Numbered from the stretch's first letter, positions 11,501 through 39,091 are shown. The stretch is 64,000 bases of DNA from a virus (IMGVR_UViG_3300032893_000004:32001-96000), one strand, 5' to 3'. Numbers and translations: made by a program. Notes: generated from the letters alone by a model not told the origin.

Positions 11501-14500
11501 GCTCCTCCATCAGGAGAAGCCGTCCCGTAGAAACCGATCCGCTGGCCGGAAACTAGCCCGTGAGCCGAAGGAGTCGTTACCGAAACGACGTTGTTCTGGT
11601 TCAGGATGTTCGAGAATGAGATAGCGTCTGAGGTGTACGCGCCGAGTGGGACGGTAACCGTAAAAGACGTGTTCGTCACAGCGACGACTTTCGCTTGAAA
11701 ACCTTGATTCTGCGGTAGGAAGTAGCCCGTAGAAGACAAGAACACTACGTCGCCTACGCCGACGGACGCGCCGCCTATACCGGATCCGAAGTTCGGCTGA
11801 GTACCTGCTTCCCACGTGTACGTGAGAGTCTGAGCCCCGCCGACCGGCGCGCCGACCGATACCGTGAAGGAAGTAGTGAAGTCCCAGTTCGGAGTACGAA
11901 CAGTCGTGACTGGCAGGTAGATCTGAGCGTCGATCACGTCCGATATACCGAAGTTGCTCGATATGGAAGTCTGATTCACGTTAGGCGGGTAGAACAGCCC
12001 GACTCTTATCGTATTCCCGGAAGGTCCGTAATCCGCCGACTTGACCAGTATCGAGTACGTACCGTTCGTGAGAGTAGCCTGCGCCTGTCTGTGGATCTTG
12101 AAGTTCGAAAAGTCGAAGTCGTAGAACGACGACACGGACGAGAGAGCCAGAGACGACTGGTTGTCCGTGGCGGAGAAGTCCTGGTTGGATGGTGTAGAGT
12201 AGCTCGACACGATCAGCTGGCGAGATATCGGCAAAGCGTACGATTCGGTAGAGGCGTTACCGTCGACTATGACGGTCGACTGGTCGTCGGAGTAGAACTT
12301 GTAAGACGATCGCATGAAGAATCGGTCAGTCGCGTTCATGACTGCTTGTCCAGTCTGCATATAGAGCGGTACGTCGAGAGTCATATAGGTCGTAGCTGGA
12401 TCATAGAACGTGACGAGAGAGCGATTGGTCTTGTTCGTTTCCGGTACGATCGCGAGAGGCGACGAGGTGAACCGTTCTAGAATTTCCAGGAAATCGCTGG
12501 TAGACGATCCTAGAGCTTCGAAGTCAGGCTGATCGAAGATGTTGTCCGAAACGGCTGTCCCGAGAGCGCTCCACGTGAAGTTCGGTATGCCCGCCTCGGC
12601 GTCGGTTTCCGACACGAATCCGTAGAAGGCAGGAGTGTTCGCAAACGCCTCGCCTACCGTAAGACCGAGTACGGATCCGTTCATGTCCACTGCAGCCACG
12701 TAGAACTGCCCGTCGGAGTCGAACGTAGCGGTAGATATCCTGACTGATGATCCTTCGATGTCCGAGATAGTGCCTGTCAGCTGCGACTGCACTTCTCCCA
12801 GGAAGGTGGTCAGAGGATTGATGTCAAATGAGAGAAGCTGCACCGGCGCCGCTGACTTGACGAATACGATTCTGGTGGAAGTTGGGATGATCGACGTGTT
12901 AAGGTTCATCCGGTTGATAGGACCGTCGTCCACCGTGACCACTCCGGTAGTCACCGACAGAACGCGCCAGAAGCCTTGGTTGGATTGCAACGGAGCTGGA
13001 TCGGTCGGATTCGCCCAGACGATTAGCCAGTCACCTACGGAGACGTCATCGAATCCCTGCGGCTGTAAGGAAGGTGTCAGTCCAGATATCGTGAGAATAG
13101 TCCCCGTCTTCGAGAATGTTATGGATGTATTCGGAGACAGACCGTTAGGAACAGACTCGGCCGCGCCGTCCGTGATGATCCACGCGCGGCCCGCGACACC
13201 TGGACCGTCCGGCATGGGAGACGTCAGATCGTTGCCACGAGTGTACTGCGAGCCGGCTGTGATCTTATCTCCTGGCTGCAAGGACACTGCTAATCCTATC
13301 TGACCTGTCCACTTGTTGAGCGTGTAATCCGACGTCGTACCAGTCGCTTCCAGCGGTGCTTCGAGATCGAATATCTGGCTGAGAAGCGTTCCGCCTATGA
13401 AGCTTATAGCCGCAGCAGTATTCGCGCCGCGAGCGGAAGCGAAGGTAAGCACGTTACCGTTGACGGTAGTGATCACTCCAGGCATAAGGGAGTTGCACAC
13501 GGCGGCCCAGATCGTCAGAGACGTAGACGCCGAGACGATCGCACCCTGCTGGACAGCTTGGAACGCGGCCGTCGTGAATGTGGCGGTCACCGGTGGAGTA
13601 TTATCCACTTGATAGATCAATGTGTTGCCGGTGGCGATGGAAGACGCCCAGGTAGCTTGCTCTCGCGAGTTTATAGAAGCTACCACGCCGTCTTCGTATA
13701 GCGGTAGGTCGTTCTTGAACAGACGAATAGTCACATCCGGATTCAGAGGAAAGCCCAGCGCCACATTGGCGTCTACTCCGCTGGGAGCGACGACGACTGC
13801 GATCTGATTCAGAGATACGTTTGTCGGATACACGACTACGTTCGCGCCGTTGTTAGCGGTCGAAGCGGACCACCCGATGTTAATGTCGCCGTTGATGGAA
13901 GCTGCGATTTCCTGGGCAGTAGCCGAGGACGGTACAAGAAAGTCAGATGCCAGGAACTGGTGGGTGGTCTGCACGCCTTCTACAATGCACGACAGGAACG
14001 ATCCAGCCGTGATCGCGTACGGTCCAGTAAACGTGTTCTCGATGCGAGCCTGAGCTACCGGTACCTGCCTCAACTGGAGGTTTATCTCGCCGCCGACGGC
14101 GCTGTCGACTACGGTCTCGAACGGGGCGCCGAGGAAGTTCGGTTCGTACGCTTGCCCATCAGAGAATACGAGGGAAGCGGTGTTATCGGCGTTCGTGATG
14201 ACGTTGGCGGAAGATACCTTCTTCAGTTCGTCGAGAGCGACCAGTCCTTTTACGGCAGTTTCGATGGCCTGATCAGTTCCCTTAGACTTAGCGATCTCGT
14301 ACGCCTGGATGCGATCCTGGATGTCTTGATCGGTGTCAGCATCCACGCCGTTCGTGAACGCCAACGGATTGTTGACCGTGGCCGTAAACGCTACGCCGAC
14401 GATCTCGGAGATGGCTCCGATCGATACGTTGCCGATCGTGCCTGGGGTCTGGCAGATCACGGGCACGCCGTCGACTTGCACTTCCCCGTCCGGTATCGTC

Positions 14501-15153
14501 GCGCCAGCGGTTGTGCTGAAGGAGACAGCTAAGATCGACGCACCTTGAGCGGTCTGGACCGTGGTATTCGAAGGGATGAACCGGTTACCGCCTTGGGCTA
14601 GCACGACAGTTTCGCCGATGTTGTGGAACTTGGTGGTAGGGCTCGTACCAGCTAGGGTGATGGCCCAGTACGCACCGCCCGCAACCGTCGCGACCGACGT
14701 ATATGTGAGCGGACCTTCTACGTTGGTGGTACCTCGGCCCACGTAGATCTGTCCGCCGCCAGATGGGAACAGAGTCGCATCCGGGACGTAGATTACTAGC
14801 GAGCCAGAAACCGGAGCTGGCTGACCGGCGTACACGTTGGTCGAGATCTTAGTGAAAGACTGATCGATGATAGATACTTGACCGTATGACGAAAAAGCCG
14901 AGTATATCGGTACGTTAGCGTCGTTCGCTTGTCGCTGCAGCGCTTCGCCGGTAGCGCGATTGGCGTTCAAGGCGTCGATCATAGTAATGATGTCGGCCGA
15001 ACTCTTGAACAGGCCTTGAGAGATCGCTTCGGTGATCTGCGTGAAGACGCTACCGTCGTTCAAATCAATATCTTTTCTCAAGCGCGAGCGGATCGCGTCG
15101 ATCAGATTACCATTGATCTGCTCTTTTGAAAGCAATACTGGAATATCAGCCAT
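8599..15153 (-). CDS. large baseplate wedge (J/gp6-like) protein with inserted beta-rich domains
   Basis: N-terminal CQTPGTIGNV...NGVDADTDQDIQDRI...SKGT and C-terminal AGYVNNLDVGESV...IPGVTSV baseplate J signatures; two carbohydrate-binding-like repeats (Y.VGD.V.Y.G.NY.S.Q..N..N.P..SP..W). Confidence 0.8.
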   Translation of the reverse strand: MADIPVLLSKEQINGNLIDAIRSRLRKDIDLNDGSVFTQITEAISQGLFKSSADIITMIDALNANRATGEALQRQANDANVPIYSAFSSYGQVSIIDQSFTKISTNVYAGQPAPVSGSLVIYVPDATLFPSGGGQIYVGRGTTNVEGPLTYTSVATVAGGAYWAITLAGTSPTTKFHNIGETVVLAQGGNRFIPSNTTVQTAQGASILAVSFSTTAGATIPDGEVQVDGVPVICQTPGTIGNVSIGAISEIVGVAFTATVNNPLAFTNGVDADTDQDIQDRIQAYEIAKSKGTDQAIETAVKGLVALDELKKVSSANVITNADNTASLVFSDGQAYEPNFLGAPFETVVDSAVGGEINLQLRQVPVAQARIENTFTGPYAITAGSFLSCIVEGVQTTHQFLASDFLVPSSATAQEIAASINGDINIGWSASTANNGANVVVYPTNVSLNQIAVVVAPSGVDANVALGFPLNPDVTIRLFKNDLPLYEDGVVASINSREQATWASSIATGNTLIYQVDNTPPVTATFTTAAFQAVQQGAIVSASTSLTIWAAVCNSLMPGVITTVNGNVLTFASARGANTAAAISFIGGTLLSQIFDLEAPLEATGTTSDYTLNKWTGQIGLAVSLQPGDKITAGSQYTRGNDLTSPMPDGPGVAGRAWIITDGAAESVPNGLSPNTSITFSKTGTILTISGLTPSLQPQGFDDVSVGDWLIVWANPTDPAPLQSNQGFWRVLSVTTGVVTVDDGPINRMNLNTSIIPTSTRIVFVKSAAPVQLLSFDINPLTTFLGEVQSQLTGTISDIEGSSVRISTATFDSDGQFYVAAVDMNGSVLGLTVGEAFANTPAFYGFVSETDAEAGIPNFTWSALGTAVSDNIFDQPDFEALGSSTSDFLEILERFTSSPLAIVPETNKTNRSLVTFYDPATTYMTLDVPLYMQTGQAVMNATDRFFMRSSYKFYSDDQSTVIVDGNASTESYALPISRQLIVSSYSTPSNQDFSATDNQSSLALSSVSSFYDFDFSNFKIHRQAQATLTNGTYSILVKSADYGPSGNTIRVGLFYPPNVNQTSISSNFGISDVIDAQIYLPVTTVRTPNWDFTTSFTVSVGAPVGGAQTLTYTWEAGTQPNFGSGIGGASVGVGDVVFLSSTGYFLPQNQGFQAKVVAVTNTSFTVTVPLGAYTSDAISFSNILNQNNVVSVTTPSAHGLVSGQRIGFYGTASPDGGATYPFNTTYVVTVTGTNTFTVPTPNSVPDSLIASASLVSNIVTVTTQTNHGLQVGDVVLISGAGLSYNGLAAISAVTASNQFQYVRSGSAASVAIGRVDFQSYLPTAPVSIAIVTASGTLITVNTSSLHGLNPGDITTVAGISISAYASGTTYGVGDIVSYLGNNYISTQTANTGNTPNTSPTWWTITTLNLSGTFVVNSTPTTSQFTYYYQASIGTNTAGTGGTSTELIPSGSMARAIGGSTNENLQFGVVSTTAQQVVDYISQNIPTLLVAAVNNATPNAPITSSTQDNGLSSNYYTATVTSFQTFLTSRRAKVQLSIAAPAGSTITLSGMSTMGGNNYNGTYVVIDTYLDTGLGYMVSVIQLPALASASTVYTPGGTATGSLPMLMLYDGENEVLSSNLQAPATFPMFTAKNAWTSVPTVGEQLRLVATTNEQLVRFWNELVVTGFSNVGEVELTRYGREIQLSTQTFGGSGSVQITGGTANSLEVALVGSGEEPTTKEGYFSVPSALHKGFVVGQWVNLINNITQNKQLGFSETTTVQLNATTLQITGGTGSFQTKRAVNYTAATQLKIEKHGAFVAVVGVGGPSMDLLTNGVQEGDWVRLYDTQETPWVSTTTYASGARVYYGGSNYTSIQNSNTNNEPDTSPSFWQVQEFNASNTGVFQVVRIFGNDTFWIVNANPVEEIVTLGNVANMSFYSYDSVMPGDVLIVTTNVLGTANIGRYTVVDNTFGVGYSFPTSTAIWLTPTITNPSSPVTLGGEFSLVNVQEANPLSLWKRILAMGPGNGNTTNIIVDSPNLTERITSSLSAQAIATSKLNMNTNINLGIDAYKYYIGLIQLITNTIYGVPYDRINFPGWRASGSPINIVPATLLSIKASFAIRIASGVPFTDIIDVVQSAIAGYVNNLDVGESVSISAMIAAASTIPGVTSVTVTSPTFSSSSDLIAVNANEQAYVINPTTDITITLLT

Positions 15154-15176
15154 TTGAGTCCTTGCGAGATGCCCTA

Positions 15177-15185
15177 AAGATTAGG
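15177..15185 (-). promoter_or_regulatory. candidate late promoter CCTAATCTT
   Basis: Exact motif, intergenic, about 23 nt before ATG. Confidence 0.65.
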
Positions 15186-15186
15186 C

Positions 15187-17778
15187 TCATCTCGGCAGTG
15201 CCGCACGCACGGGAAGCGTTATATTCGTATCCGCGATCTTGATCAGGAGGCTCACCACTACCGCCGGCCCCGTGATCTGAACCTCGCCGGCTAGAAGCCC
15301 GCCGAAGCGCGGATCCTGCTTAAAGGCCAGATTCAGAGCATTCAAAACGTCCTGCGCCGATATGTCGGCTGTCGAGATACCAGCGTCTAGCGGGTTGCCG
15401 TACGAAGGCAGCTGAAGCAGGCTGTTGACCTTCGTCTGGATCTTGATCGTCGCCGCTTGAAGCAGATTCGTGTATCCATAGGACAAGGACACGTCGCCGC
15501 CTCCAGTTATCACGAGATCTCCGGTCTGATCGAGGAGCAGGTCCACCTTAGCCATCTGCGCTATGCCGTCCAGCTCTGCTATTTCCGGAGAAGTCTTGAA
15601 GTTCGTGTTGAACGTCGGCGGCGTAGTCGAAGGGATCGCTATCAGCATGCCGGGAGACACCGTGTCCGGAGCGTAGGCTAGTATGAACGCACCTTCGGTA
15701 GGCTGGTAGGTCGTCAGGTCGGTGTTAGACGCCGCGAAGGTCACGATAGTTTGCGTGTTCGAGACCACGTCGATCGAGATGATCTTCTGCTGAGTATCTG
15801 TCACCGTCGGAGATTGAACGTACACGATTTGCCCGATGTAGAGCTGCATGCGGTCGGCGATGATCAGGCTGTTTCCGCCCGGACTACCTATGATGGGTAT
15901 CTGATAACCTACCTCGTCGACGTACGGTTGCTTCAGCGCGTTCAAAGCTGCGATCTCGATCCAGCGCTCCGGTGCTCCGAGGTACTGTGTTGCCAGCTGC
16001 TCAAGGGATCCGTCCATAGGAAACGGTACGAAGAAGCGCGAGATATTGTTGTTGTCGAAGCGTAGGCCTTGAGTGATCGCGTAATCCGAGTAGAACTGAT
16101 AGTAGTCTTGGACGTTGTTGGCCTCATTCAGATCCATCATCGCGATGAAGCTGTCGATCTGCGTCAGAATATCGTTGATATTGTTGAGCAGAATGATGTC
16201 CGTGACAGTCAGCTTCTTGTAGTTCACCGGCGGCGGTGGCAGTCCTTTGATGGCGTTGTATGTGGCTGATCCGCCGCCCAGTGCGGTAGAGATGGAAGTG
16301 GCATAGTCCTGAATCGAGTTCCTCATGTTGATCAGGTCCTTCGCCTTGAACTGCAACGTAGTCTGCGTGATGGAGTTGAGCTGGTTTGTTATCGCGTTCG
16401 ACAGACCCATATCTTCTATCGGAAAGTTCGAGAACACCTGAGGATAGTTCGCCGGGTTAGCGAACAGAACGTTGAGCGGGTCAGACGAATCACCAGAGTA
16501 CTGGAACTGATCCGCTAAGCCGGAATTCAGCTGAGCCTGAGCCGACGTGTTCATCGCAGAGATAGGCTTACCGCCAGCAGTGACGCCGCCGACCAGTCCA
16601 ACCGTTCCTATCTGGGCGATCGTAGCTGCCACCTGCTGCATCGCAGGCGAGTTCTTGTTGGCCGTGAAGTACGAATTGAAGTCTGCTTTCATGGCGCTGA
16701 GGGTGCTTCCGCTGAAGGCGAAGTCGTACATATTCGTAGCGAGTCCTACGAGATCCTTGCCGAGGAGGACTATCTGCCCGATCGGCGCGGTGAAGGAATC
16801 GTTGATGTCGTTCCGGATACCGCTCATGACGTTGTTCGACTGCGCCACCAGCGTCCTAGCCTGATTGATGCCATTGATGATATTCGATAAGGTGTTGGAA
16901 GTGGCCGACGCGTTGATCTTGCTCTTTAAGTTGTTCGAACCAGGACTCAATCCGGGCAAGGTCGGCTCGCGGCGATAAGCCGTCAAATTTATCGTATACT
17001 GATACTCCACCGTGCCGGCAGCCTTGTTGATCGTCCAATTGCCGAGGCTGCAGGCGTAGTACTTCTTGTCCTTATTCATGATGAAGTACAGGCGCCAGCC
17101 CTTGTTAAGGGCCTGCTTCTTGCCTGCTTGGTAGAAGTCGAGGAACCGGTCGAGATCGTTAATTGACTGATAGCCGGTCAGCATGTTGACGATGTTGTCG
17201 TTCGTGAAGTTGAGCGGTCCCGTGAACTGCTGCGTAGCGCCCGTGAAAGCGCTGACGGTCTTCGCAGCCTGGTTGACTACTCCGTTGACGGCTGAGATCG
17301 TATTCTTGAAAGCGTACTCCAGAGAACGGACGATGTCGCCAGGCACGTTTGCCGTGGCGTTCGACTGAGTATTAAGAGTCGGGGCCGTTCCGGTCGTTCC
17401 GGAAATAACGATCGGGCGAAAAGGCGAGCCGTTGTGAGTTTCGTAGATTCCTTTCATCGTAGCTTCGAGCACGTTCGCGGACGGATTCTGTATAGAAATA
17501 TTCTGCGGATTGATCGGGAACACGTACTTCGCGATGGTATTGTCGGTCACCACATCTCTGATCCAGAGTTCGTATCCGTACGACTTGTTGAAGTCCATTT
17601 GATTGAGCTGGACGAACCGGAAGAACAGGTCTTGAGAATCGAGAGTTTTGGAAATATCAGTCGAAGCGTTCAGTACCATCTCTGGTGTGGTAGCCTGAGA
17701 GACGCCTGGCTGCCGAGTCAGGTCCGCAGGCGAGCTGCCGAGCGCGTTGTTTATGACCTGGGTAAGATCGAAGCTCAC
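15187..17778 (-). CDS. baseplate/tail initiator protein with LysM-like and gp25-like regions
   Basis: SLEQLATQYLGAPERWIEIAALNAL (LysM/tail X-like); C-terminal NLLQA...PSYG...QDPRF (gp25/W-like). Confidence 0.7.
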   Translation of the reverse strand: MSFDLTQVINNALGSSPADLTRQPGVSQATTPEMVLNASTDISKTLDSQDLFFRFVQLNQMDFNKSYGYELWIRDVVTDNTIAKYVFPINPQNISIQNPSANVLEATMKGIYETHNGSPFRPIVISGTTGTAPTLNTQSNATANVPGDIVRSLEYAFKNTISAVNGVVNQAAKTVSAFTGATQQFTGPLNFTNDNIVNMLTGYQSINDLDRFLDFYQAGKKQALNKGWRLYFIMNKDKKYYACSLGNWTINKAAGTVEYQYTINLTAYRREPTLPGLSPGSNNLKSKINASATSNTLSNIINGINQARTLVAQSNNVMSGIRNDINDSFTAPIGQIVLLGKDLVGLATNMYDFAFSGSTLSAMKADFNSYFTANKNSPAMQQVAATIAQIGTVGLVGGVTAGGKPISAMNTSAQAQLNSGLADQFQYSGDSSDPLNVLFANPANYPQVFSNFPIEDMGLSNAITNQLNSITQTTLQFKAKDLINMRNSIQDYATSISTALGGGSATYNAIKGLPPPPVNYKKLTVTDIILLNNINDILTQIDSFIAMMDLNEANNVQDYYQFYSDYAITQGLRFDNNNISRFFVPFPMDGSLEQLATQYLGAPERWIEIAALNALKQPYVDEVGYQIPIIGSPGGNSLIIADRMQLYIGQIVYVQSPTVTDTQQKIISIDVVSNTQTIVTFAASNTDLTTYQPTEGAFILAYAPDTVSPGMLIAIPSTTPPTFNTNFKTSPEIAELDGIAQMAKVDLLLDQTGDLVITGGGDVSLSYGYTNLLQAATIKIQTKVNSLLQLPSYGNPLDAGISTADISAQDVLNALNLAFKQDPRFGGLLAGEVQITGPAVVVSLLIKIADTNITLPVRAALPR

Positions 17779-18380
17779 GATATTTCTCCTCGGCCAGCGC
17801 CGGATCCTGCACCGGGTGTCGGTACGTCGGGGCTACCAACGATCGTTAAGACGCCGGTTCCTTGAGTCAAGATGCCGAAAGATACCCCAGCTGCTACCGC
17901 AGCCGCGAAGTCCATGCGATGGTTACCTTTCCCGGACAGAGAGTTGTAGATGTTGGTCGCCATCTCCGATTCTGAAACCGTAATCGAGCCGACAACTATC
18001 TCGCCTTCGCCGGCGTATACAGGCGTATCGACCGATACGAGCTGTGCCGATGACATCAGATGCTGGACGGTAGCCTGCATGATAGCATCCGCCGTACGCT
18101 TCGCATTCTTCCCTAGCGAGCGTGACGGATCCTTGAGTTGCATCTGCATCTTCGCGAGAGTAACCTTAGTCATGCTGTCTGGGTCCATACCGGTTATCCC
18201 GACTCCTGTACCGGCGCCTGTGCCGGGAACACCGCCGATATCGATGGTCGTAAACGACTTCCCTACGATGCTCATAGCTATCCCGGACGCGATCTCGTTC
18301 GCGAACTTGCCTGCGTTCTTGCCGGAAGCGTTCATGTTGGATCTGATCAAGCTAGCGAGCGTGTCAGCGTTGATGCTCAT
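17775..18380 (-). CDS. virion/baseplate-associated protein with internal duplication
   Basis: Repeated GKNA.. and Gly-rich motifs; follows spike gene. Confidence 0.6.
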   Translation of the reverse strand: MSINADTLASLIRSNMNASGKNAGKFANEIASGIAMSIVGKSFTTIDIGGVPGTGAGTGVGITGMDPDSMTKVTLAKMQMQLKDPSRSLGKNAKRTADAIMQATVQHLMSSAQLVSVDTPVYAGEGEIVVGSITVSESEMATNIYNSLSGKGNHRMDFAAAVAAGVSFGILTQGTGVLTIVGSPDVPTPGAGSGAGRGEIS

Positions 18381-19009
18381 AGATTTATCCCCAGCTCTTC
18401 CAAGCCTCTTCTGTCTAACAGTTTCAAAGGTATCATCGCAGAAGCTTCGGTGAACTTCTGCTCGGCATCCTTGCGGAAATAGCCTTTGATCTCTACGTAG
18501 GTCTTCCATTCTGGAACATAAAAATCTGGAGTATAAAATCCGACGGACGTTTCGAAAGCTTCCGGCTCATACGACCAACTGATGCCAAGATCGTTTAGAT
18601 ATTTCGCGAAAGCGACTTCCCACGATGACCGGAATCTCGTACCTTCGTATTCGATGCGTTTTACGCCAGGATTATTGAATTTATGCCGACACTTGTTGGA
18701 ACAATATTTTGCGGTTTGTGCGCGATATTTGTTAACCGAAAAAGTTTGACCGCATTTACACTGTATTTCTATGCGTCCCTTAAAATTGGGATTGTTCGAA
18801 CCGTCGAACGAAGGTCTAGCGGCAACTATCTTGGCAGCCACTGATTTTCTCTCAGGAGAAGATTGGTAACAGTCTTTGCACATGCCGTAGACATTTCTTA
18901 AAGCGGAAAGCTTACGAATTCTGCTATCAGTGTGACACGCATTGCACTGGAATAATACGGTCACATATCCTTTTGAACGGTCGTACTGTTCGGTATTCGA
19001 TATAATCAT
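18377..19009 (-). CDS. free-standing PD-(D/E)XK endonuclease with zinc fingers (homing-type)
   Basis: FRSSWE...YEP...YTPDFY...VEIKG; several CxxC; AT-richer than flanks. Confidence 0.75.
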   Translation of the reverse strand: MIISNTEQYDRSKGYVTVLFQCNACHTDSRIRKLSALRNVYGMCKDCYQSSPERKSVAAKIVAARPSFDGSNNPNFKGRIEIQCKCGQTFSVNKYRAQTAKYCSNKCRHKFNNPGVKRIEYEGTRFRSSWEVAFAKYLNDLGISWSYEPEAFETSVGFYTPDFYVPEWKTYVEIKGYFRKDAEQKFTEASAMIPLKLLDRRGLEELGINL

Positions 19010-37392: not shown

Positions 37393-37722
37393 TTAAACCA
37401 AAACTAATCTGGAACCAGGCAACAATTTAATTAGTGCTCCTGGGTTGAGTGTTAATCCGGGAGCGATACCAACTTCGCCAGCTGCAAGAGATATAGTTCC
37501 GTTGACGACTGACTGAGTCACAAATAACTGTCCATGGATGTCGCCCGCTGGCTGAACTGATGCCAGACTATTCTGGATTGTCGTCCCAGTCGTATCCGCC
37601 CAAGTCGCGATGTTGTTCACGACGGTCGGCGGTATACCGATCACATTCCCGGTAGGATTCAACACTCGCGTAACGAGCTGAAGCGTTCCGGTAAAAGGAT
37701 TGACGACGACCTGATATGACAT
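37393..37722 (-). CDS. virion protein (fibre-associated)
   Basis: NPFTG motif; late operon position. Confidence 0.55.
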   Translation of the reverse strand: MSYQVVVNPFTGTLQLVTRVLNPTGNVIGIPPTVVNNIATWADTTGTTIQNSLASVQPAGDIHGQLFVTQSVVNGTISLAAGEVGIAPGLTLNPGALIKLLPGSRLVLV

Positions 37723-38426
37723 TATGGCTCCGTATACTGAACATTTGTCAGGTTCGCTCCCACATCATAAGTCAACACCAGCCGCGCTACTTCCGTTCCT
37801 GTTGGACCGCCAACCAGATACTGAATAAGCGTCGGTACCACAAATCCTGCTATCGTACTGTTCGTGAGCTTGATGTCGTCGAATTCGACTTTCACGAGCG
37901 ATGCGATGTCGACCGTGTTGATCGAACCGTTCGAGTTGACGGTCATCGTATTGCCGCCCTGAACGACAGACACGTTCCCGATCTCTACCGTGCCATCGAA
38001 TGCTACTGGAAGAGGATTCTCAGCGTCGTAATATGCTCCGTACTTGTTTACGAGCACGTTGCGAAGGGCTGTGGACGGTTCGTTGTCATAGACTGCTCGT
38101 AGCACGATATCGTAGCCGATCTTATTGCGAACATCCTCGGAAGCGGTGAGGGTACCGCCGTTGAACTGGGTCGGATTCTGGAGCGACTGATCCTGACCGG
38201 CTCCGACGGGCGTCTCGTACCACGGGACGACCTGAATCTGCGTGTTGGACAGCACACGCTGGATCGTATAATTGGTAGTGGTCTGGCCGATAGCAGACAG
38301 AGCGATTTTTTGCTTAGGATGGAGTCCTGCGGTATCTGAGACGGTGATGATATAATTGGCAACGGAGATGCCTGTGAGAATAACACCAGGCCAACGCTGC
38401 TCGAATATCGTCGGTAAATACGCCAT
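37722..38426 (-). CDS. virion structural protein
   Basis: GAGGT RBS before ATG 38426; first gene of fibre operon. Confidence 0.65.
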   Translation of the reverse strand: MAYLPTIFEQRWPGVILTGISVANYIITVSDTAGLHPKQKIALSAIGQTTTNYTIQRVLSNTQIQVVPWYETPVGAGQDQSLQNPTQFNGGTLTASEDVRNKIGYDIVLRAVYDNEPSTALRNVLVNKYGAYYDAENPLPVAFDGTVEIGNVSVVQGGNTMTVNSNGSINTVDIASLVKVEFDDIKLTNSTIAGFVVPTLIQYLVGGPTGTEVARLVLTYDVGANLTNVQYTEP

Positions 38427-38435
38427 CGTAAACCT

Positions 38436-38501
38436 CAGTTCTTCCGAACTGTTGCGACCCGTGTCGCCATCGAAACCATTCTCGACATTCTCAAGGTTAG
38501 G
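38436..38501 (-). promoter_or_regulatory. late-motif variant CCTAACCTT followed by a three-hairpin 5' leader
   Basis: Hairpins at 38470-38485, 38454-38467 and 38436-38451. Confidence 0.5.
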
Positions 38502-38536
38502 ATAAAATCCCGTACTGAGACGACTTTTTGAATTAT

Positions 38537-38565
38537 TTGACCGACGAGATGGACTATGGGATACT
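38537..38565 (+). promoter_or_regulatory. sigma70-like promoter TTGACC-N17-GATACT with TGn
   Basis: Shares TTGACC-N7-TGGACTATG with 1496 promoter; AT-rich upstream. Confidence 0.6.
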
Positions 38566-38571
38566 ATCTTT

Positions 38572-38668
38572 GGCGGGTATGCCAGAATCAATGGCGGTTC
38601 CGATGATCCCCCTCCTCGGAACCAGTCCAGCGTAACAGCTGATCGTGGGTTGGACCCACTACCCGCCA
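38572..38668 (+). ncRNA. tRNA-shaped RNA with anti-Shine-Dalgarno loop in place of the anticodon
   Basis: Five perfect stems in cloverleaf order; loop TGATCCCCCTCC; no 7-nt anticodon loop, TTCRA or CCA. Confidence 0.7.
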
Positions 38669-38689
38669 CTTTATTTCACCGGAGGCTTT

Positions 38690-39091
38690 GTGAGCGATAA
38701 CCACCTGTTTACAGCCAAGAAGTTCGATCCCCCGCCTGAGAACTACGACGAAGTACTCGATCGGGTGGTCGTCATCGATGCTTTGCCTGGCGGAATAGGT
38801 CAGGAAGATCAGAAGCTTACGACTCCGATCGAATCGATGCACTTCAAGCGAGTCGAAGTGAAGGAACAGGAAAAGGCTGCCGATGTTCCCGTCCGTATGG
38901 TTACGGCCGAAGAGGCCAAGCGCCTGATCTCGTCAGGAGAATTCCACAAGAGCATGATCCCTCGCAAGCTACGCTGCCGCGACTGCGGCGTCGAACTGCC
39001 GCCGGAGCGAGGCTTACTGTGCAAGGAATGTCTACCGTCTCTCCACGACGACCCAGGCCACTATCTGTACTGCGGTGTGTCCGGTGAGTAA
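38690..39091 (+). CDS. hypothetical protein with C-terminal zinc finger
   Basis: GGAGG RBS at 38681 before GTG 38690; CRDC...CKEC. Confidence 0.65.
   Translation: MSDNHLFTAKKFDPPPENYDEVLDRVVVIDALPGGIGQEDQKLTTPIESMHFKRVEVKEQEKAADVPVRMVTAEEAKRLISSGEFHKSMIPRKLRCRDCGVELPPERGLLCKECLPSLHDDPGHYLYCGVSGE

What the first reader, a model, noticed from the sequence alone, without database searches (positions are those of the whole stretch)
38572..38692. tRNA-shaped RNA carrying an anti-Shine-Dalgarno loop where the anticodon should be
Seen: 97 nt fold in exact cloverleaf order with only Watson-Crick pairs. Acceptor GGCGGGTA/TACCCGCC (38572-79/38660-67); D-like arm GCCA-GAATCAA-TGGC; 8-bp 'anticodon' stem GGTTCCGA/TCGGAACC closing the 12-nt loop TGATCCCCCTCC; long variable arm CAGC-GTAACA-GCTG; T-like arm GTGGG-TTGGA-CCCAC. 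The first G lies 7 nt after a predicted -10 box. Known: the 16S rRNA 3' tail is GAUCACCUCCU, versus GAUCCCCCUCCU here. The D-loop GG and T-loop TTCRA, which form the tRNA elbow, are both lost and there is no CCA, yet every stem is intact, which argues against random decay. The GGAGG RBS of the next gene (38681-85) is 12 nt downstream. Inference: a repurposed class II-like tRNA acting either in cis (loop-RBS pseudoknot gating the Zn-finger/UDG-like/Rrf2 operon, perhaps released by tRNA-processing nucleases) or in trans (masking SD sequences or mimicking the 16S tail). I know of no described family with this layout.
Basis: partly seen in the sequence, partly recalled or inferred. Interest (0 to 1): 0.9.

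Follow-up and report, generated by a model that had tools for sequence, protein, structure and literature searches.

The report
Non-decoding tRNA-derived leader RNA in phage
The cloverleaf is a real, conserved RNA descended from a tRNA that can no longer read codons and sits at the front of a phage operon's mRNA, but its "anti-Shine-Dalgarno" loop is replaced by unrelated loops in relatives, so that loop is not what the family is kept for.

Summary
Bases 38572-38667 (+) fold into a five-arm cloverleaf with Watson-Crick pairs only (MFE -49.3 kcal/mol, z -5.3). ARAGORN and Rfam call nothing here.

I found the same element directly upstream of the same Zn-ribbon gene in nine other phage lineages (one cut by its contig end), all uncultured relatives of a 155-kb myophage distantly related to Myxococcus phage Mx1. 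In the nine complete copies, 20 of 26 pairs carry compensatory double changes and 95.6% of cells pair. G-U pairs fix the RNA to the + strand. One relative nearly passes the Rfam tRNA model (26 vs 29 bits), so descent from a tRNA is supported.

The "anticodon" arm is the one part free to vary. C-rich loops occur only in the window's clade; other members carry UUCG, GUAA, GGA or UUC. CCUCC itself occurs only in the window.

Conserved instead are:
- the acceptor, T and D helices, and a nearly invariant junction plus variable arm (AGUCCAGCGU...AGCUGG);
- a 5' end that either coincides with the predicted start site or follows an upstream ORF's stop by at most 9 nt;
- 17-22 nt from the element to the start codon.

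Best reading, inferred only: a tRNA-like module that defines and stabilises the mRNA 5' end. It is a new RNA family of a known kind. This scan has noted similar non-decoding tRNA-like phage leaders on other DNA.

The parts
38537..38565 (+). Sigma-70-like promoter: TTGACC, 17-nt spacer, extended -10 TGgGATACT
   Evidence: The same motif (TTGAC.-17-TGnGAyACT) is conserved in L003, L007, L008, L009 and L013.
38572..38667 (+). tRNA-derived five-arm cloverleaf RNA, 96 nt, non-decoding
   Evidence: MFE fold. Covariation in 5 and then 9 sequences. CM hits upstream of the orthologous gene in other lineages.
38572..38579 (+). Acceptor-like stem, 5' strand, pairing with 38660-38667. The first base is the predicted transcription start.
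   Evidence: All 8 pairs show compensatory double changes. It lies 7 nt after the -10 box.
38581..38595 (+). D-like arm GCCA-GAATCAA-TGGC, with no G18G19
   Evidence: 94% of cells pair.
38596..38623 (+). Extended 'anticodon' arm: 8-bp stem with 12-nt loop UGAUCCCCCUCC. This is the variable 'payload' arm of the family.
   Evidence: The outer 5 pairs all covary and are 100% paired. The apical part is unconserved: UUCG, GUAA, GGA or UUC in relatives.
38624..38644 (+). Junction AGUC plus variable arm CAGC-GUAACA-GCUG plus AUC. This is the most sequence-conserved block of the family.
   Evidence: AGUCCAGCGU...AGCUG is nearly invariant in 9 sequences.
38645..38659 (+). T-like arm GUGGG-UUGGA-CCCAC. 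Relatives have 7-nt loops such as UUAGAAU.
   Evidence: The L008 T arm aligns to the tRNA model.
38660..38667 (+). Acceptor-like stem, 3' strand
38668..38680 (+). Single-stranded U-rich trailer (A-CUUUAUUUCACC), with no CCA
   Evidence: N-CUUU(U) follows the acceptor stem in most members. It is unpaired in folds that include downstream sequence.
38681..38692 (+). Shine-Dalgarno GGAGG (38681-38685) and GTG start codon (38690-38692)
38690..39091 (+). Zn-ribbon protein gene, 133 aa (LPGGxGQ motif, then CxxC...CxxC). It is the gene always found just downstream of the element.
   Evidence: No Pfam, PHROG or PDB family.

Best explanation
The element is a tRNA-derived structured RNA that no longer decodes. 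It is transcribed on the + strand as the first ~96 nt of the mRNA for the Zn-ribbon / UDG-like / Rrf2 operon.

Selection keeps the tRNA body: an acceptor plus T coaxial helix of about 12-13 bp, the D arm, and the junction plus variable arm. The former anticodon arm is a freely exchangeable hairpin.

My proposal, which is inferred and not shown, is that this body works as a tRNA-like 5'-end module. In the window the promoter starts transcription at the first paired base. In relatives that keep a small upstream ORF, host RNase P would cut at the same position. The result would be an mRNA whose 5' end is buried in a compact tRNA-like fold, which would protect it from 5'-end-dependent decay. A short U-rich single strand and an open ribosome-binding site follow at a fixed distance. 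Cleavage in the U-rich trailer by tRNA 3'-processing enzymes, which would release a stable tRNA-like RNA and a short-leader mRNA, is a possible extra step.

The C-rich loop of the window's clade is a lineage-specific feature displayed on this scaffold, not the family's core.
For: Shown:
- The fold is real and strand-specific. In five sequences, 96.9% of cells pair and 15 of 26 pairs have double changes. In nine, the figures are 95.6% and 20 of 26. No shuffle out of 500 reaches these values, and slid controls are near zero. G-U pairs occur only on the + strand reading.
- All nine sequences fold to the same cloverleaf by MFE alone, and keep it with 60 nt of downstream sequence added. The SD is not paired with the element in any of them.
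- tRNA descent is supported. The L008 copy aligns end to end with Rfam tRNA at 26.0 bits against a cut-off of 29, E = 0.001. The family model R2 picks out annotated tRNAs of phage Mx1 at 12-16 bits.
- The anticodon arm is the only arm free in length and loop. This is the position where the engineered 'tRNA scaffold' accepts any hairpin while E. coli still processes and stabilises the RNA (PMC3753655).
- The 5' end is constrained. In four lineages (window, L009, L007, L013) the first base of the element is the 7th base after the -10 box. By the protein tree this arose at least twice independently.
- In five lineages an upstream ORF ends at most 9 nt before the element. In four of them (L003, L008, L017, L020) that ORF is homologous, so the ancestral state was probably intercistronic.
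- The element's 3' end lies 17-22 nt from the start codon in all nine.
- There is one copy per genome.

Inferred from known biology:
- Plant mitochondrial t-elements are non-canonical tRNA-like folds that direct RNase P and RNase Z to form mRNA ends (PMC1920247).
- The phage also carries a true tmRNA. By general knowledge, tmRNA 5' ends are matured by RNase P.
Against: - There are no RNA data.
- The tRNA elbow (D-loop GG, T-loop UUC) is degenerate in the window and there is no CCA. Both should weaken bacterial RNase P recognition.
- A plain 5' hairpin would be enough as a stabiliser, so the model does not explain why five helices are kept.
- It also does not explain the near-invariance of the junction plus variable arm sequence. 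That invariance suggests a sequence-specific partner.
- Three lineages of the same gene lack the element (L016, L019, L045), so it is not essential for expression.
Confidence: 0.4

Rival explanations
1. Protein-binding operator. The tRNA-like fold, and above all its invariant junction plus variable arm, is the binding site of a sequence-specific protein that controls translation or stability of the operon mRNA. Candidates are the Zn-ribbon protein encoded immediately downstream (autoregulation), another phage protein, or a host tRNA-binding protein. Known parallels are T4 gp32 and RegA, and the thrS operator.
For: AGUCCAGCGU...AGCUGG is nearly invariant across nine sequences whose other stems have drifted freely. 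The element is strictly linked to one gene family and lies at a fixed 17-22 nt from its start codon. The downstream product has a Zn ribbon and no known function.
Against: There is no evidence that the Zn-ribbon protein binds RNA. It has no Pfam, PHROG or PDB sequence hit and no significant structural hit. The gene exists without the element in three lineages. The SD is 5-13 nt from the fold, so occlusion is not obvious.
Confidence: 0.2
2. The tRNA body is a scaffold that displays a C-rich apical loop. This loop pairs with G-rich Shine-Dalgarno sequences, either in cis with its own RBS or in trans after release. That would resemble the RNase P-processed C4 RNA of phages P1/P7 or C-rich-loop sRNAs such as RsaE/RoxS. 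It would apply only to the window's clade.
For: The window loop has CCUCC, which is complementary to its own GGAGG (5 bp, -8.0 kcal/mol). All six members of the window's clade carry a run of 3-6 C in the apical loop despite changes in stem length; the five placed on the tree form a group with 93/96 support.
Against: CCUCC and the 16S-like GAUC...CCUCCU string occur only in the window. In L003 the last C is A and the CUCA lies in an extended stem. Pairing with the own SD is 3-5 bp and partly uses stem bases. Four members have UUCG, GUAA, GGA or UUC loops yet keep everything else, so the family's conserved function cannot be anti-SD. The clade members are related, so shared C-runs are not independent events.
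Confidence: 0.15
3. A free-standing tRNA-like molecule used as a tRNA mimic. It could be charged by an anticodon-independent synthetase (the long variable arm and 8-bp acceptor stem recall tRNA-Ser/Sec and allo-tRNAs). Alternatively it could act as a decoy or sponge for host tRNA-binding enzymes or tRNA-targeting defence nucleases.
For: 8/5 acceptor/T geometry with a long, conserved variable arm. The phage has no canonical tRNA genes but does carry a tmRNA, so it does make tRNA-like RNAs.
Against: The discriminator base is not conserved (A, U, G, C) and no CCA is encoded. The anticodon loop, the usual target of defence nucleases, is the least conserved part. The fixed position in front of one gene's RBS is unexplained by a purely trans role.
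Confidence: 0.1
4. A decaying tRNA pseudogene or a chance fold with no function.
For: It fails every tRNA detector and lacks the elbow motifs.
Against: 20 of 26 pairs show compensatory double changes across lineages whose flanking protein is only about 35-63% identical. The fold z-score is -5.3. Position and spacing are conserved.
Confidence: 0.03

Closest known systems
t-elements of plant mitochondria (tRNA-like processing signals; Forner et al. 2007, PMC1920247)
   Same: Non-canonical cloverleaves derived from tRNAs, embedded in mRNA precursors next to coding regions. Their edges coincide with mRNA ends. They do not decode.
   Different: t-elements are shown to be cut by RNase P and RNase Z and usually keep the GGTTCRANYCC T arm. 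Here cleavage is untested and the T loop is degenerate in the window. The host is a bacterium and the element belongs to a phage. The junction plus variable arm is sequence-invariant, which is not a t-element feature.
Engineered 'tRNA scaffold' for recombinant RNA (Ponchon and Dardel; PMC3753655)
   Same: The acceptor, T and D arms are kept, and the anticodon stem-loop is replaced by an arbitrary hairpin. The body ensures recognition by cellular enzymes and nuclease resistance. The family's conservation pattern mirrors this design.
   Different: The scaffold is man-made, keeps canonical elbow contacts and CCA, and is released as a free RNA. The natural element is fused to an mRNA leader and has a long variable arm.
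C4 antisense RNA of phages P1/P7 and CI RNA of P4 (Rfam RF01695; from my own knowledge)
   Same: Phage RNAs encoded upstream of their target on the same transcript and matured by RNase P. Their loops pair with a downstream ribosome-binding region.
   Different: No match to the Rfam model. The loop-RBS complementarity is not conserved here. C4 is not a five-arm cloverleaf.
Canonical class II tRNA, tRNA-Sec and (8/5, 8/4) allo-tRNAs (Rfam RF00005, RF01852; Mukai et al. 2017, from my own knowledge)
   Same: Cloverleaf order, long variable arm, an 8-bp acceptor plus 5-bp T stem in the window, and a relative scoring 26 bits on the tRNA model.
   Different: No 7-nt anticodon loop in any member, no conserved discriminator, no CCA, no D-loop GG or T-loop UUC in the window, one linker base instead of two, and below threshold for every tRNA detector.
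tRNA-like modules fused to other RNAs: MHV68 TMERs, MALAT1 mascRNA, T4 stable RNAs C and D, tRNA-tufB operon (from my own knowledge)
   Same: A tRNA or tRNA-like fold co-transcribed with another functional RNA and used as a handle for tRNA-processing enzymes.
   Different: Different organisms and layouts. None is a conserved 5' leader of a phage protein operon with an exchangeable anticodon arm.

Membership tests
Canonical tRNA (Rfam RF00005 / ARAGORN) | Detected at curated thresholds | tested here: not met
   ARAGORN finds nothing in the window or the 155-kb genome at default settings, and nothing for the window element even at -ps90. Rfam gives no hit. Relative L008 reaches 26.0 bits against a cut-off of 29.
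Canonical tRNA (Rfam RF00005 / ARAGORN) | 5-bp anticodon stem with a 7-nt loop (U33, anticodon, R37) | tested here: not met
   The window has an 8-bp stem and a 12-nt loop. Relatives have UUCG, GUAA, GGA and UUC loops or 6-11 nt C-rich loops.
Canonical tRNA (Rfam RF00005 / ARAGORN) | Elbow motifs: D-loop G18G19 and T-loop U54-U55-C56-R57-A58 | tested here: not met
   The D loop is GAAUCAA and the T loop is UUGGA in the window. Relatives have UUAGAAU or UUAAAAU, with no C56.
Canonical tRNA (Rfam RF00005 / ARAGORN) | Cloverleaf order with an acceptor/T stack of about 12 bp | tested here: met
   8+5 bp in the window and 11-13 bp in relatives, all covarying.
Canonical tRNA (Rfam RF00005 / ARAGORN) | Conserved discriminator and 3' CCA (encoded or added) | tested here: not met
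   The base after the acceptor stem is A, U, G or C, followed by CUUU(U). No CCA is encoded. Post-transcriptional addition is not testable.
tRNA-like processing signal (t-element type) | Non-canonical tRNA-like cloverleaf inside an mRNA precursor, abutting a coding region | tested here: met
   The element lies between the promoter or an upstream ORF (at most 9 nt after its stop) and the RBS (17-22 nt to the start codon) in nine lineages.
tRNA-like processing signal (t-element type) | Cleavage by RNase P at its 5' edge and/or RNase Z/E at its 3' edge | not testable with these tools
C4/CI-type cis-encoded antisense RNA (Rfam RF01695) | Match to the family model | tested here: not met
   No hit at gathering threshold or at E<=10.
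C4/CI-type cis-encoded antisense RNA (Rfam RF01695) | Loops complementary to the downstream RBS, conserved among relatives | tested here: not met
   5 bp in the window, 3-5 bp in clade members (partly stem bases), and none in the UUCG, GUAA, GGA and UUC members.
tRNA-Sec / allo-tRNA (8/5 or 8/4) | 8-bp acceptor, 4-5 bp T stem, long variable arm | tested here: met
   Window 8/5. Pair 8 covaries (A-U, G-C, C-G). The variable arm has a 4-5 bp stem and a 6-nt loop.
tRNA-Sec / allo-tRNA (8/5 or 8/4) | Functional anticodon loop, and a match to RF01852 | tested here: not met
   No 7-nt loop in any member. No Rfam tRNA-Sec hit.
Riboswitch or other catalogued cis-regulatory RNA | Rfam match, and an expression platform that sequesters the SD or forms a terminator | tested here: not met
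   No Rfam family matches. There is a 14-bit chance-level resemblance to freshwater-2 in one relative only. The SD is not paired with the element in MFE folds of all nine members. No terminator is called.

The most novel reading that the evidence does not exclude
Phages of this clade use a natural 'tRNA scaffold'. This would be a tRNA-derived chassis, matured and stabilised by the host's tRNA-processing enzymes, that carries lineage-specific hairpin payloads in place of the anticodon arm. In the window's clade the payload would be a C-rich, SD-complementary loop. The released RNA, or the leader in cis, would then throttle translation of its own operon or of host SD-led mRNAs. The invariant variable arm would recruit a dedicated phage protein.
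Probability: 0.12. Interest if true: 0.85.

Novelty: new variant of a known kind. Interest (0 to 1): 0.58.

Why it matters
The element adds a well-supported structured RNA family that Rfam does not hold. It has covariation in every helix and a clear evolutionary story: a class II tRNA lost decoding and became a fixed 5' leader module of a phage operon, with its anticodon arm now a free insertion site. If the proposed mechanism holds, phages would be using host tRNA-maturation enzymes to shape and protect mRNA ends. That principle is established for plant mitochondria and mirrored in the engineered tRNA scaffold, but to my knowledge it has not been described as a conserved feature of phage mRNAs. 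The family also gives a clean test system, with natural variants that have a promoter-defined or an ORF-preceded 5' end and C-rich or tetraloop payload arms. It also cautions against reading function from one attractive loop motif in a single sequence.

Tried and rejected
- **Rfam.** Searches of the window, the locus and relatives gave only noise: isrJ 22.7 bits on the opposite strand, a snoRNA, and freshwater-2 at 14.2 bits in L014 only, driven largely by the SD/AUG part. I found no text on freshwater-2 in the source paper.
- **DNA similarity and pattern scans.** A DNA similarity search against cultured phages found no match. Exact-pattern scans with the loop arm found nothing. Scans with the variable-arm motif found only the two known IMG/VR contigs, plus chance matches in viral and bacterial genomes with no fold and no tRNA. 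The motif is therefore not borrowed from a recognisable host tRNA.
- **Protein-anchored searches.** In IMG/VR they found homologs only in the two related contigs, via the upstream gene; in JGI metagenomes only that same relative again. Relatives came from the large protein collections instead.
- **Myxococcus phage Mx1.** This nearest cultured relative has neither the element nor the Zn-ribbon gene.
- **Extra copies.** I looked for further copies in the genome, as a possible repeated punctuation element. There is one copy only.
- **Variable-arm complementarity.** I looked for conserved complementarity between the invariant junction/variable arm and flanking sequence. There is none.
- **Function of the Zn-ribbon protein.** Pfam, PHROGs, a PDB profile search and the ESM Atlas (NinF-like at chance level) gave nothing usable. 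An AlphaFold2 model (pLDDT 72, pTM 0.27) followed by Foldseek also gave nothing.
- **Anti-SD or 16S mimicry as the family function.** Rejected on loop variability.
- **DNA-level palindrome or operator reading of the variable arm.** Considered, but the rest of the element shows RNA-type covariation with G-U pairs, and L008 keeps the variable-arm pairing through sequence change (L009 keeps most of it).

Full report
**What is there.** The window is bases 32001-96000 of a 155-kb IMG/VR virus record, estimated 96% complete. They fold, as MFE and as centroid, into a five-helix cloverleaf built only of Watson-Crick pairs. The energy is -49.3 kcal/mol against -30.3 +/- 3.6 for dinucleotide shuffles (z -5.3, 0 of 200 as stable). 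A sigma-70-like promoter, TTGACC-17-GATACT with an upstream TG, ends at 38565, so G38572 is the 7th base after the -10 box. The next gene starts at GTG 38690, behind GGAGG at 38681-38685. It encodes a 133-aa protein with an LPGGxGQ motif and a CxxC...CxxC ribbon. Two small ORFs, a UDG-superfamily protein, another ORF and an Rrf2 regulator follow. ARAGORN calls no tRNA in the window. In the whole genome it calls no tRNA at default settings, and none for the window element even with relaxed thresholds. Rfam 15 gives no family at gathering score and only noise at E<=10.

**Relatives.** Cultured phages hold no similar DNA. The tail sheath is 39% identical to that of Myxococcus phage Mx1. Mx1 has a large tRNA array right after its sheath and tube genes, but neither the element nor the Zn-ribbon gene. 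I anchored further searches on the neighbouring proteins.
- The upstream divergent gene led to two IMG/VR contigs, identical across the aligned intergenic region.
- The Zn-ribbon protein, first as a small alignment and then as a profile against 1.84 billion representatives, led to further metagenomic contigs.
- A covariance model built from the first five copies found the element in L013, L014, L017/L018 and L020-L022, and a copy cut by the contig end in L012. In every case it lies directly upstream of the orthologous gene.
- Three lineages of the gene lack it. In L016 the gene overlaps the upstream ORF. In L019 a promoter abuts the SD. In L045/L046 an ORF abuts the gene.
- Each genome searched has one copy.

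**Is the fold selected?** Yes. On the MAFFT alignment of five sequences, 96.9% of cells pair and 15 of 26 pairs show changes on both sides. No shuffle out of 500 reaches this, and sliding the partners by 1-3 columns leaves 0-2 such pairs. On nine sequences the figures are 95.6% and 20 of 26, with a covariation score of 0.71 against 0.21 for shuffles. That second alignment is fitted to the model. However, each of the nine sequences also folds into the same cloverleaf by MFE alone, and keeps it when 60 nt of downstream sequence are added. G-U pairs appear in several homologs and would be A-C mismatches on the other strand. The RNA is therefore read on the + strand, in line with the promoter and the gene. 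A decaying pseudogene is excluded.

**Is it tRNA-derived?** The L008 copy aligns end to end with the Rfam tRNA model at 26.0 bits (cut-off 29, E = 0.001). It has a T arm GGG-UUAGAAU-CCC and a UUCG tetraloop where the anticodon loop should be. Relaxed ARAGORN calls it a tRNA with an undetermined anticodon. The nine-sequence model weakly but selectively picks annotated tRNAs in the Mx1 array. The acceptor plus T stack is 11-13 bp, against 12 in tRNA. The window's version is 8/5 with a single linker base and a long variable arm, resembling class II and Sec-like tRNAs. No member has a 7-nt anticodon loop. The discriminator position varies and no CCA is encoded. None of them can decode.

**The loop that prompted the finding.** The apical part of the 'anticodon' arm is the least conserved part of the family.

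| Member | Apical stem and loop |
|---|---|
| window | U-GA-UCCCCC-UC-C |
| L003 | an 11-bp stem closing UCCCCC; the former CUCC reads CUCA and is paired |
| L007 | CCGA-CCCCCC-UCGG |
| L009 | ACCU-UCCCCU-AGGU |
| L012 | GGUC-CCCC-GACC |
| L017 | UGAGUCCCAAU |
| L008 | UUCG |
| L014 | GUAA |
| L013 | GGA |
| L020 | UUC |

CCUCC and the 16S-like GAUC..CCUCCU string exist only in the window. Predicted pairing between the loop region and the element's own RBS is 5 bp in the window (-8.0 kcal/mol). Elsewhere it is 3-5 bp, often using bases already locked in the stem. The C-rich loop is a shared trait of one clade; five of its six members form a group with 93/96 support on the protein tree, which L009 was left out of. 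A clade-specific role for a C-rich loop stays open.

**What is conserved instead.**
1. All helices of the tRNA body are conserved.
2. The junction plus variable arm, AGUCCAGCGU-NNN-AGCUGG, is nearly invariant even where the acceptor stems share almost no sequence.
3. The 5' edge is conserved. In the window, L009, L007 and L013 the first base of the element is the 7th base after the conserved TGnGAyACT -10 box, and pairing starts at that base or the next. L013 lies outside the window's clade, so this arrangement arose at least twice.
4. In L003, L008, L017, L020 and L014 an ORF lies between the promoter and the element and stops at most 9 nt before it; in L014 its stop codon overlaps the element's first three bases. 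Four of these ORFs are homologous, and so is the one in L016, so the intercistronic layout is probably ancestral and the window lost the ORF.
5. The 3' edge is followed by N-CUUU(U) and then the SD. The distance from the element to the start codon is 17-22 nt in all nine.
6. The SD is not paired with the element in any MFE fold, and no terminator is detected.

**Mechanism (inferred).** The conservation pattern is a tRNA body with an exchangeable anticodon arm. This is the design of the engineered tRNA scaffold, which E. coli processes and shields from nucleases whatever hairpin replaces the anticodon arm (PMC3753655). A tRNA-like fold placed between an upstream cistron or promoter and an RBS, with both edges constrained, matches the t-elements of plant mitochondria, which direct RNase P and RNase Z to create mRNA ends (PMC1920247). 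I therefore favour a 5'-end-defining and stabilising module. The start site, or RNase P where an ORF precedes, would give an mRNA whose 5' end is base-paired inside a compact fold. A single-stranded U-rich stretch and an open RBS would follow at a fixed distance. A 3' cut releasing a free tRNA-like RNA is possible. I put this at about 0.4.

What this model does not explain is the invariant variable arm. The narrowed anti-SD scaffold idea gets 0.15, a free tRNA mimic or decoy 0.1, and no function 0.03.

**Limits.**
- The host is unknown.
- L009 comes from an assembly in which the neighbouring gene is frameshifted, so single-base details of that copy are unreliable.
- The Zn-ribbon protein has no recognisable family or fold.
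- Earlier notes of this scan describe other non-decoding tRNA-shaped RNAs in phage leaders on unrelated DNA. I did not test them. They suggest the theme recurs.

**Verdict.** This is an uncatalogued family that I class as a new variant of a known kind, namely tRNA-like cis elements.

Noticed in passing
L044:420-849 (-), which is genome G000:C1 18619-19048, about 13 kb before the window start: The phage encodes a genuine tmRNA: Rfam RF00023 at 128.5 bits, E 1.4e-51, with ARAGORN tag DNEYEFQAAA. It has no canonical tRNA gene.
   Followed up: partly
L023 (Myxococcus phage Mx1, OR576727.2) 12146-18699: In the nearest cultured relative, a large tRNA gene array and an RNA ligase gene lie right after the tail sheath and tube genes. 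This is roughly where the present phage has the operon headed by the tRNA-like element, on the other strand. The element may be a relic of such an array.
   Followed up: partly
window 38454-38467: Inverted repeat GCGAC-CCGT-GTCGC in the leader of the divergent minus-strand gene (37722-38426). It is conserved in L003, and with small changes in L008 and L009. It may be a 5' hairpin of that mRNA.
   Followed up: no
window 38500-38510: Inverted repeat GGAT-AAA-ATCC between the divergent genes, about 30 nt upstream of the -35 box. It is identical in L003 and L009. It could be an operator, for example for the operon's Rrf2 regulator.
   Followed up: no
L003 2541-2841 (-); L008 3601-3891; L016 555-833; L017 1776-2066; L020 2087-2383: A conserved ~96-100 aa ORF of unknown function (46-57% identity) lies between the promoter and the element in relatives. 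It has been lost in the window, L007, L009 and L013.
   Followed up: partly
L009 4001-4522: The Zn-ribbon gene of this ENA contig matches only over its first ~45 residues and then diverges. This is probably a frameshift from assembly error, so base-level details of this locus are uncertain.
   Followed up: no
window 38690-39091 and homologs (alignment A6): The Zn-ribbon protein family has an invariant LPGGxGQ...L.EPI motif at the tip of a predicted long beta-hairpin, plus a C-terminal CxxC-x11-CxxC ribbon ending in YCGVSGE. It has no Pfam, PHROG or PDB relative.
   Followed up: partly
L014 377-440: There is a weak (14.2 bits, E = 4) resemblance of the variable arm, T arm, SD and AUG to Rfam freshwater-2 (RF02980). 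It is seen in one member only and is probably chance.
   Followed up: partly
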